NCBI RefSeq assembly: GCF_000026545.1
Contig: NC_011601.1
Strand: one strand, 5' to 3'
DNA length: 64,000 bases
Origin: Escherichia coli O127:H6 str. E2348/69
GTDB lineage: Bacteria > Pseudomonadota > Gammaproteobacteria > Enterobacterales > Enterobacteriaceae
Shown here: in pieces, positions 22,701 to 25,700 of the stretch
Position numbering within the stretch: position 1 is the first letter of the stretch
How the letters are laid out: the number at the start of each line of letters is the position of its first letter
Made by a program: the position numbers

Positions 22701-25700
22701 GGACGCCAATCGCCCGGCTGGTGGCGTTAGAGAGTATATCGGGCGCGCGATTGGGAATATAACCCAGTTCATCAAGAGCGGCGGCAATCTTGCCGCGTAG
22801 AGCGACGGAAACCTGCTCCGGGTTGCGTAAAAAACGGCTGACCGTCATTTTGGTCACGCCTACACGGTCAGCCACATCCTGAAGTACGGGTCTTTTCTTT
22901 TTCATCGTCCTGAAGGTACAAAAGAGATAGATTCTCTTAGTTTAACACGGACGCATCACAACCTTCCCGATTCCTCAGGAAGGTTTGTGAGATAAATTTA
23001 GACTGGCGGTAAATCGAACAGCAGGATTTCACTGTCGCTATCAGCATGGATGGAAATCGCCTGCTCATCCCAGATTGCCAGACCATCGCTGGTCGAGGCT
23101 TTCACGCCGTTAATGGTGACATTGCCTTTCACCACCTGGATCCAGACGCGGCGTTCAGCGGCAATCTGATGCACCGACTGCTCATCTTTCACCAGCGCCC
23201 AACGATACAGTTCCATATCCTGATGCACTTTCAATGAACCATCACGCGCATCCGGCGAAAGCACCAGTTGTTTGCCCTGCACGGCATCGAAGCGACGCTG
23301 TTCATAACGCGGCGTAATGCCGTTTTCTTCAGGCATGATCCAGATCTGATACAGATGCAGACGCTCGGTGCTGCTTGGGTTGTACTCTGAGTGACGAATA
23401 CCCGTACCCGCACTCATAATCTGGAACTCGCCCGTCGGAACCTGCTCTTTATTGCCCATGCTGTCCTGGTGCTCAACAGTACCTTCCAGCACGTAGGTCA
23501 AAATTTCCATATCTTTATGCGGGTGAGTGCCGAAGCCCTGCCCTGCTTCAATCACGTCGTCGTTAATCACGCGCAGCGCAGAGAAGCCCATAAAGTTCGG
23601 ATCGTAATAGTTGGCAAAAGAGAAAGTATGCCAGGAGTCCAGCCAGCCATGATTTGCATGACCGCGTTCATTTGCTTTGCGTAAGTAGATCATTTGTATT
23701 CGCCCCCTGAATGATTTCGATGGGCTTAGTGTGGACCCGATCCGCCTGGGATGATAGAGGGTGAAAATTGACCCCTCTGTTCAAAAAAATTGAACTATTC
23801 GAGGGGCCATCAAACTTACCTCGCGAGAGTCACTGCGGAGGGAGAAGCTTGCTCAAAACCGCGTTCAAGGATTTCCAGATTCGTAAGAACTTCAGATTCC
23901 TTGACGTAATTTGGCGCACCGTTGGTAATGGTTTGATACAACGCATCATAAACGCGCCCATAATCGCCCATCTCTGGCTTCATCTCTTCTCTTACCGTCA
24001 CGCCCTCGTCATTGACATACTCCAGCACACCGACCGAATCATCCGCTGCGAATCCTGGTTCGCCCGGCATAATATTAGCCTTCAGGCTAGTTTCCTGCTG
24101 GTCGATACCGTATTTAATAAACGAACCTTTCTTACCGTGAACGATAAATTTCGGATAATCGATTTTCACCAGATGGCTGGTTTTGACGATGGCTTTTAGA
24201 TCGCCATAAAACAACTGCGCTTCAAAGGTGTCGTCCGGATTGGCTTTATTACGCAGGCTGCGGATGTCATAAGCGACGTGATCCGGGCGACCGAACAGAG
24301 AAATAATCTGGTCCATCGTATGCACACCAAGGCCATAGAACGCGCCATCCTGCGGTAGCCCCGGTTTGGTTTCTGCCACCGGGCGGTAATAGTCAAAATG
24401 GCTTTCCACTTCGACAATCTCTCCCAGCTTGCCGCTTTCAATCGCTTTTTTCGCTGTCAGGAAGCAGGAATCAAAGCGACGATTCTGATACGGCGTAACG
24501 ATCAGCCCTTTGCTTTTCGCCAGTGCAAACAGCTCTTTCGCCTGCGCAATTGTCGGAGTGAACGGTTTTTCGACCAGCACATTTTTCCCGGCTTCCAGCG
24601 CGCGCTTCGCGTACTCGAAGTGGCTGTCCGCGTGGGTGCAGACGACAACCAGCTTAACATCGGGATCGTTTAGCACTTCGTCGAGATCGCTGGTGAAATG
24701 GATATGGGAATAAATGGGGGCCTGTTCTTCCGGCTTCGCATGGCGGCGAAAAATATGCGCGACATGCCAGCTATCCTTGCGGTTAAGTACATACGGCAGA
24801 TGGTAACGGGTGGTGCTTTTGCCGAAGCCAATAAAGGCGCAGTTAATGACCATGATTTCGTCCTTTTTAAGGTGGTTATTTACACCTTAGCGCAAAGCGG
24901 ACGTGGTTCCTACTGGAGTGCGCATAACGAACACAAGCACTTCCCGAGGATAAATTGAGAACGAAAGGTCAAAAAAAAAGCCAGCACCCGGCTGGCTAAG
25001 TAATACTGGAAGCAATGTGAGCAATGTCGTGCTTTCAGGTTCTCCGCGAGGGTCTTCCTGATCGCGAGACAATAATAATCATTCTCATTTGCACTTGTCC
25101 AACACTTTTTGCAAAAAAATGCATTTGACTCGCATTTGAAAGTCAATGATGTTGAAAGGGACATTTACCCCAAAGAGGACAAAGGAATGAGTGAGATAGT
25201 AATACGCCACGCAGAAACACGCGATTACGAGGCTATCAGGCAGATTCACGCCCAGCCGGAGGTGTATTACAACACGCTACAGGTGCCTCATCCTTCAGAA
25301 CAAATGTGGCTGGAACGACTCACCGCTCGCCCTGGCATCAAGCAGTTAGTCGCCTGTATTGATGGAATCGTCGTAGGCCATCTCACCATTGACGTGCAAC
25401 AACGCCCACGCCGCAGTCATGTTGCCGATTTTGGTATCTGTGTCGACTCCCGTTGGAAGAACCGCGGCGTCGCCAGCGCCCTGATGCGAGAGATGATTGA
25501 AATGTGCGACAACTGGTTGCGGGTAGATCGTATTGAGCTAACGGTGTTCGTCGATAACGCGCCAGCAATTAAGGTCTATAAAAAATTTGGCTTTGAGATT
25601 GAAGGGACTGGCAAGAAGTACGCGCTGCGTAATGGTGAATATGTCGATGCGTATTATATGGCGCGGGTGAAATAGAGAATTTGCAATCTACGTTTGTCAT

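What the first reader, a model, noticed from the sequence alone, without database searches (positions are those of the whole stretch)
24972..25095. RyhB sRNA with Fur box, not reported by ORF-based tracks
The 90-nt RyhB sequence with its terminator stem and U-tract is present intact on the minus strand between yhhX and yhhY, preceded by a Fur box overlapping its promoter. This is a known feature, but it is a good internal check that the segment is E. coli-like and that iron regulation at this locus is intact.
Basis: partly seen in the sequence, partly recalled or inferred. Interest (0 to 1): 0.35.

Follow-up and report, generated by a model that had tools for sequence, protein, structure and literature searches.

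The report
RyhB iron-sparing small RNA gene
This is the well-known E. coli small RNA gene ryhB, with its Fur-repressed promoter and terminator intact, so the finding is correct but ordinary; the only new detail is one strain-private base change in the promoter.

Summary
The observation and the interpretation both hold. The window is identical (0 mismatches in 64,000) to the chromosome of enteropathogenic E. coli E2348/69. Rfam RyhB (RF00057) hits 24972-25036 on the minus strand at 83.1 bits (gathering score 55). The full RNA, 25065 to 24971, is 95/95 identical to K-12 ryhB (b4451) and lies between yhhX and yhhY.

A sigma-70-like promoter (-35 at 25101-25096, -10 at 25077-25072) is overlapped by a Fur box at 25068-25086. 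That is the only such site in the 64 kb. A 7-bp hairpin followed by nine T ends the gene.

The 27-nt core is exact in at least 120 loci from Enterobacterales, Aeromonas and Vibrionaceae. Of 116 copies with full flanks, 113 have an upstream Fur-like box and 102 have a terminator whose stem changes in a compensatory way.

RefSeq's annotation of this strain has no ryhB feature, so the claim that gene tracks miss it is true.

One small addition: base 25090 (-25, in the promoter spacer beside the Fur box) is A only in the three E2348/69/O127:H6 assemblies. 4,892 genomes carry the K-12 61-mer with G there. The effect is untested and probably neutral.

Verdict: already known, low interest.

The parts
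24971..25065 (-). ryhB transcribed region. +1 is G at 25065. The 90-nt form ends at 24976, and the K-12-style feature including all nine T ends at 24971.
   Evidence: 95/95 identical to K-12 b4451. The 90-nt string was located at 25065-24976. Rfam RF00057 scores 83.1 bits over 24972-25036.
25006..25032 (-). Conserved 27-nt core GCACGACATTGCTCACATTGCTTCCAG (RNA nt 34-60). It holds the pairing seed, which is two tandem copies of a 9-nt unit (ACATTGCTC, ACATTGCTT).
   Evidence: Exact in at least 120 loci across Enterobacterales, Aeromonas and Vibrionaceae. RNA nt 38-46 (GACATTGCT) are perfectly complementary to sodB -4..+5.
24971..24997 (-). Rho-independent terminator and Hfq-binding module: a 7-bp stem AGCCAGC/GCTGGCT with a 5-nt loop (24997-24979), then a run of nine T (24979-24971). 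The stem's last T is also the first of the nine.
   Evidence: Terminator scan. MFE and centroid folds keep this hairpin. 102 of 116 homologous copies have a perfect hairpin plus T run, with 17 different but always paired stem versions. PMC4509938 gives a polyU of 9 and about 20% read-through.
25068..25086 (.). Fur box (19-mer; + strand GACAATAATAATCATTCTC) overlapping the -10 hexamer and the spacer.
   Evidence: 3 mismatches to the consensus, the only site in 64 kb, 0 of 100 shuffles. Identical to the K-12 site, where Fur binding was shown by gel shift: a 25.2-bit cluster centred at -15 (PMC2189734). A Fur-like 19-mer with at most 5 mismatches lies upstream of 113 of 116 homologous copies, against about 2% of control windows.
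25072..25101 (-). Sigma-70-type promoter: -35 TGGACA (25101-25096), 18-nt spacer, -10 TATTAT (25077-25072). The -10 ends 7 nt before +1.
   Evidence: Promoter scan, 10 of 12 matches, the only site in 24700-25400. This block is nearly invariant across Enterobacteriaceae.
25090..25090 (-). Lineage-private G->A at -25, in the promoter spacer 4 nt upstream of the 19-mer Fur box.
   Evidence: The only difference from K-12 upstream of +1 and the only difference from Nissle 1917 in 341 nt. The exact 61-mer occurs in 3 records (E2348/69 and two O127:H6), against 4,892 records for the K-12 allele. Across the family this column is G 48, A 33, T 31, C 1.
24854..24970 (-). 117-nt spacer between the RyhB terminator and the yhhX start codon. 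This is the possible read-through path into yhhX.
   Evidence: No promoter-like site was found here. The spacer is not conserved between genera and is only about 45 nt in Lelliottia and an Enterobacter MAG. Co-transcription of yhhX from the ryhB promoter has been suggested but not shown (PMC4509938, PMC8896160).

Best explanation
This is the chromosomal ryhB gene of E. coli E2348/69.

When iron is plentiful, Fe2+-Fur binds the box that overlaps the -10 hexamer and spacer and blocks RNA polymerase. When iron is scarce, Fur leaves and a roughly 90-nt RNA is made from +1 at 25065. It ends at the hairpin and U9 terminator, which also serves as the Hfq-binding 3' module.

With Hfq, the single-stranded conserved core (nt 34-60) pairs with the translation-start regions of mRNAs for non-essential iron proteins such as sodB. 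This blocks translation and triggers decay, which spares iron.

Shown here: the identity of the gene, its promoter, Fur box, terminator and seed anatomy, its conservation, and the sodB complementarity. Inferred from published work on the identical K-12 sequence and on this strain: Fur repression, Hfq dependence, and the action on targets.
For: Rfam RF00057 scores 83.1 bits against a gathering score of 55. The RNA is 95/95 identical to K-12 b4451, and the 121 nt upstream of +1 differ at one base.

Synteny is yhhX-ryhB-yhhY. The promoter and terminator were found by scan. The Fur box is unique in the 64 kb.

The gene is present in 5,424 of 5,426 complete E. coli genomes, and the 95-mer is exact in 5,358 of them.

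Across genera, the core is exact in at least 120 loci. A Fur-like box lies upstream of 113 of 116 copies. Compensatory terminator stems occur in 102 of 116. The divergent yhhY neighbour is present in 48 loci.

RNA nt 38-46 form a 9-nt perfect complement over the sodB start codon.

Literature: Fur gel shift at ryhB (PMC2189734); terminator and Hfq module (PMC4509938); RyhB among the abundant Hfq-bound sRNAs in EPEC E2348/69, with reported control of grlRA in the LEE (PMC8550237, PMC5748587).
Against: Nothing argues against the identification.

There are caveats on function. No expression data were generated here. The fold energy of the whole RNA is not unusual (z = -0.67), which is common for sRNAs. 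The 9-nt sodB complement alone is reached by 19 of 1,000 shuffles. The -25 G->A difference has an untested effect. The sodB, fur and hfq loci of this strain lie outside the window and were not inspected directly.
Confidence: 0.97

Rival explanations
1. The gene is RyhB but its regulation differs from K-12. The lineage-private G->A at -25 (25090) would change Fur occupancy or promoter strength, giving EPEC E2348/69 a shifted RyhB set-point.
For: The base lies in the spacer, 4 nt from the 19-mer Fur box and inside the 31-bp Fur cluster described for K-12 (PMC2189734). The A allele's exact 61-mer is found only in the 3 E2348/69/O127:H6 records of 5,426 genomes. Within Enterobacteriaceae the block GTGCGAATGA is nearly invariant.
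Against: The mismatch count to the Fur consensus is the same for both alleles in either register (by inspection). Across RyhB promoters of other genera this column is G 48, A 33, T 31, so A is tolerated. Position -25 is not a recognised sigma-70 contact. RyhB is readily detected on Hfq in this strain (PMC8550237).
Confidence: 0.1
2. Besides making the sRNA, the unit serves as the iron-responsive promoter and leader of yhhX. A fraction of transcripts read through the RyhB terminator into yhhX, as with sgrS-setA.
For: yhhX is on the same strand, 117 nt downstream, with no promoter-like site in between. In Lelliottia and an Enterobacter MAG the gap is only about 45 nt. About 20% read-through of the ryhB terminator was measured on a plasmid (PMC4509938). 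yhhX mRNA rises on iron limitation, and this rise is lost when ryhB and its promoter are deleted (PMC8896160).
Against: The authors say co-transcription is not shown experimentally (PMC4509938). Termination becomes more efficient under stress, according to the same paper. The spacer is not conserved and carries insertions in other E. coli and E. albertii. The promoter scan is a crude consensus test.
Confidence: 0.4
3. The region encodes a small protein: one of the mechanical ORFs 24910-25164 (84 aa), 24887-25072 (61 aa) or 25024-25128 (34 aa).
For: These ORFs exist in the six-frame list.
Against: There are no Pfam matches. None is annotated in RefSeq for E2348/69 or K-12. Both minus-strand ORFs start upstream of the RNA's +1 and run through the terminator. 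A 1-nt indel relative to K-12 at 24942 falls inside them. The downstream spacer is not conserved.
Confidence: 0.01

Closest known systems
E. coli K-12 RyhB (b4451; SraI), Rfam RF00057
   Same: The 95-nt transcribed sequence is identical. The -35, -10, Fur box, terminator and neighbours yhhX and yhhY are the same.
   Different: One base at -25 (A here, G in K-12). There are three differences in the non-conserved spacer towards yhhX. The 3.45-kb yhhZ-yrhB island beyond yhhY is absent in this strain.
RyhB paralogue pairs (RyhB1/RyhB2-type second copies) in Yersinia, Photorhabdus, Serratia, Pantoea, Pectobacterium
   Same: They share the exact 27-nt core, an upstream Fur-like box and a hairpin plus U-tract terminator.
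   Different: Those species carry two copies at different loci. E. coli has one copy per genome at the median, and this window holds a single copy.
Vibrionaceae RyhB (Photobacterium, Aliivibrio, Salinivibrio)
   Same: Same 27-nt core and an upstream Fur-like box.
   Different: No terminator within 70 nt after the core, which means a longer RNA. The flanking genes differ.
PrrF1/PrrF2 of Pseudomonas (RF00444)
   Same: A Fur-repressed, iron-sparing sRNA, so a functional analogue.
   Different: Not homologous by the Rfam test: 23.2 bits against a gathering score of 90, E 0.6.

Membership tests
RyhB (Rfam RF00057) | Covariance-model score at or above the curated gathering score (55 bits) | tested here: met
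   83.1 bits, E 3.6e-14, model positions 1-67 of 67, not truncated.
RyhB (Rfam RF00057) | Conserved single-stranded core GCACGACAUUGCUCACAUUGCUUCCAG | tested here: met
   Present at 25032-25006. The same 27-mer is exact in at least 120 loci of other genera.
RyhB (Rfam RF00057) | Fur box at the promoter (iron-repressed transcription) | tested here: met
   The sequence feature is met: the 19-mer at 25068-25086 overlaps -10 and is identical to the gel-shifted K-12 site (PMC2189734). Actual repression by Fur in this strain was not tested.
RyhB (Rfam RF00057) | Rho-independent terminator with a long U tail (Hfq-binding 3' module) | tested here: met
   7-bp stem plus nine T. The stem covaries across genera.
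RyhB (Rfam RF00057) | Orthologous position (divergent from yhhY, upstream of yhhX) | tested here: met
   The same neighbours are found in 20 loci of other Enterobacteriaceae, and yhhY alone in 28 more.
RyhB (Rfam RF00057) | Seed complementarity to the sodB translation start | tested here: met
   RNA nt 38-46 are perfectly complementary to sodB -4..+5 of K-12. That sodB 90-mer is exact in 5,406 of 5,426 E. coli genomes. The E2348/69 copy was not inspected individually.
RyhB (Rfam RF00057) | Hfq-dependent repression of iron-protein mRNAs in vivo | not testable with these tools
   Rests on the literature for the identical sequence and on RIL-seq in E2348/69 (PMC8550237).
PrrF (Rfam RF00444) | Covariance-model score at or above the gathering score (90 bits) | tested here: not met
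   23.2 bits, E 0.6.

The most novel reading that the evidence does not exclude
The E2348/69-private G->A at -25 of the ryhB promoter (25090), next to the Fur box, alters Fur repression or promoter strength. RyhB is reported to act on grlRA of the LEE in EPEC, so this would shift iron-linked control of virulence in the prototype EPEC strain relative to other E. coli.
Probability: 0.08. Interest if true: 0.3.

Novelty: already known. Interest (0 to 1): 0.1.

Why it matters
As a finding it mainly serves as a positive control. It adds nothing new about RyhB itself. The two modest leads are the strain-private -25 promoter base, and the still unproven idea that yhhX is transcribed by read-through from the Fur-controlled ryhB promoter.

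Tried and rejected
1. RNAduplex of full-length RyhB against sodB -60..+30 gave a long duplex of -34.8 kcal/mol that ignores internal structure. 30 of 500 shuffles reached it, so it was uninformative. I replaced it with the exact-complement test.

2. The whole-RNA fold z-score was -0.67, which gives no evidence either way.

3. Coding alternatives: three mechanical ORFs over the region have no Pfam match and are not contained in the transcript. Rejected.

4. I looked for a conserved element in the RyhB-yhhX spacer. None was found, and the spacer varies in length and content even within Escherichia.

5. The sub-threshold Rfam hit to PrrF is rejected as membership.

6. I tested whether the -25 A changes the match to the Fur consensus. 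The mismatch count is the same for both alleles, and the column is variable across the family.

I replaced it with a search on enteropathogenic and LEE.

Full report
**Observation.** Reading the minus strand of 24700-25400 shows the textbook RyhB sequence. A scan of the whole window against Rfam 15 at gathering thresholds gives two hits. One is RF00057 (RyhB) at 24972-25036, minus strand, 83.1 bits against a gathering score of 55, E 3.6e-14, with the full model matched. A more permissive scan of 23500-26500 adds only a chance-level PrrF match of 23.2 bits against 90.

The Rfam model covers only the 3' 65 nt. The canonical 90-nt string maps to 25065->24976. The K-12 ncRNA feature b4451 maps to 25065->24971 with 95/95 identity.

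**Anatomy.**
- Promoter: the consensus scan finds exactly one promoter-like site in 24700-25400. It is TGGACA (25101-25096), an 18-nt spacer, then TATTAT (25077-25072), ending 7 nt before +1.
- Terminator: the same scan finds one terminator-like site, AGCCAGC-CGGGT-GCTGGCT (24997-24979), followed by a run of nine T. The hairpin is kept in both the MFE and the centroid fold.
- Fur box: the 19-bp consensus GATAATGATAATCATTATC matches once in the whole 64 kb with at most 3 mismatches, at 25068-25086. None of 100 shuffles gave a match. The site overlaps the -10 hexamer and the spacer.
- Neighbours: yhhX (23816-24853, minus strand) lies downstream and yhhY (25187-25675, plus strand) is divergent.
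It omits the -35 hexamer and the last T.

**Origin of the window.** The 341-nt region is 100% identical to E. coli E2348/69 and to two O127:H6 assemblies. The whole window equals NZ_CP059840.2 309054-373053, reverse complemented, with 0 mismatches in 64,000. The RefSeq annotation of that record lists only CDS features around the locus and has no ryhB. The K-12 record carries the ncRNA.

**Conservation within E. coli.** The locus is present in 5,424 of 5,426 complete genomes, always on the chromosome. The 95-nt RNA sequence is exact in 5,358 of them. One outlier, strain 23AR0151, has a third tandem copy of the 9-nt unit ACATTGCTC inside the seed core.

**Conservation across genera.** The genera include Citrobacter, Enterobacter, Klebsiella, Yersinia, Serratia, Pantoea, Photorhabdus, Aeromonas, Photobacterium, Aliivibrio and Salinivibrio. 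Many species carry two copies.

Of 116 copies with full flanks:
- 113 have a Fur-like 19-mer with at most 5 mismatches within 110 nt upstream, against about 2% of random 110-nt windows from the same loci.
- 102 have a perfect hairpin followed by a T run 20-30 nt after the core. There are 17 distinct stem versions, all perfectly paired (for example AGCCAGC/GCTGGCT, GCCCGC/GCGGGC, AGGGCCAG/CTGGCCCT), which is compensatory change.
- The 14 without a nearby terminator are all Vibrionaceae, consistent with a longer RNA there.

A yhhY homologue lies within 1.5 kb in 48 loci, and a yhhX homologue in 23.

**Mechanism.** The RNA and its control region are identical to K-12 apart from one base. The mechanism therefore follows from established work on that sequence. 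Fe2+-Fur binds the box over the -10 region and spacer. A 25.2-bit Fur cluster centred at -15 of ryhB was confirmed by gel shift (PMC2189734). The terminator hairpin and its nine U form the Hfq-binding 3' module, and about 20% of polymerases read through it (PMC4509938).

I verified directly that RNA nt 38-46 (GACATTGCT) are perfectly complementary to sodB -4..+5, covering the start codon. The sodB 90-mer I used is exact in 5,406 of 5,426 E. coli genomes.

For this very strain, RIL-seq placed RyhB among the abundant Hfq-bound sRNAs under virulence-activating conditions. RyhB has also been reported to act on grlRA of the LEE (PMC8550237; PMC5748587, citing Bhatt et al. 2017).

Fur repression, Hfq dependence and target decay are inferred here, not measured.

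**What differs from K-12.** Upstream of +1 there is a single difference, A instead of G at 25090, which is position -25.
- The 61-mer 25060-25120 is exact in only 3 records, E2348/69 and the two O127:H6 assemblies. The K-12 version is exact in 4,892.
- The close B2 relative Nissle 1917 differs from the window in 24860-25200 only at this base.
- In Enterobacteriaceae the block GTGCGAATGA is nearly invariant.
- Over all RyhB-type promoters the column reads G 48, A 33, T 31, C 1.
- Neither allele changes the mismatch count to the Fur consensus.

I rate a functional effect unlikely (about 0.1), but it has not been tested.

**Downstream spacer.** The 117 nt between the terminator and the yhhX start codon (24854-24970) contain no promoter-like site. 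The spacer is not conserved between genera, carries insertions in other Escherichia, and shrinks to about 45 nt in Lelliottia and an Enterobacter MAG. This fits the published but unproven suggestion that yhhX is transcribed from the ryhB promoter by read-through (PMC4509938, PMC8896160). I give it a probability of 0.4 as an additional role, not as a replacement for the sRNA function.

**Rejected alternatives.** The mechanical ORFs overlapping the region (84, 61 and 34 aa) have no Pfam match and are not annotated in either genome. They start upstream of +1 or run through the terminator, and they are hit by an indel relative to K-12. PrrF membership fails its threshold.

**Verdict.** The feature is already known. 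Interest is low at 0.1. Its value is as a positive control and as the identifier of the strain, with two small leads: the private -25 allele and read-through into yhhX.

Noticed in passing
window 1-64000: The whole window is 100% identical (0 mismatches) to E. coli E2348/69 (EPEC O127:H6) chromosome NZ_CP059840.2 309054-373053, reverse complement. It runs from rtcR to rbbA and includes the glg, gnt, ugp, liv, fts, rpoH, zntA and nik genes.
   Followed up: yes
window 25090: A instead of G at -25 of the ryhB promoter. The exact allele context is found only in the three E2348/69/O127:H6 assemblies among 5,426 complete E. coli genomes. Nissle 1917 differs from the window only at this base within 341 nt.
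   Followed up: yes
window 25676-25735: Only 60 bp separate the convergent stops of yhhY and ggt, and they contain a hairpin (about 25703-25730). K-12 has a 3.45-kb island here (yhhZ, yrhA interrupted by IS1E, yrhD, yrhB), which is absent from this strain.
   Followed up: partly
window 49378-49456 (-): Rfam naRNA4 (RF02564, a REP-derived nucleoid-associated RNA) hit at 65.2 bits against a gathering score of 59.5. It lies just 3' of zntA (47098-49296) and beside an ISEc13 (IS4-like) transposase gene at 49676-51049, between zntA and tusA.
   Followed up: no
window 61482-62113: A HicA/HicB type II toxin-antitoxin pair is annotated between yhhJ and nikR in this strain.
   Followed up: no
window 5202-8187: Between glgP and glpD the RefSeq record has a frameshifted PstS-family phosphate-binding protein gene (6680-8187) and two hypothetical genes (5202-5807 and 5810-6577).
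   Followed up: no
L126 (NZ_CP195448.1, E. coli 23AR0151) 301-404: A natural RyhB variant with three instead of two tandem copies of the 9-nt seed unit ACATTGCTC (a 104-nt gene). It is the only genome of 5,424 below 95% identity.
   Followed up: partly
window 24854-24970; loci L045, L007: The spacer from the RyhB terminator to yhhX is not conserved between genera and is only about 45 nt in Lelliottia and an Enterobacter MAG. That leaves little room for a separate yhhX promoter.
   Followed up: partly
L127 (Nissle 1917, NZ_CP022686.1): The yhhY gene next to ryhB is flagged as a pseudogene (internal stop) in the Nissle 1917 RefSeq record.
   Followed up: no
E. coli genome search: A few E. coli genomes have up to 3 places matching the ryhB locus, and 2 of 5,426 have none. 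I did not examine which genomes these are.
   Followed up: no
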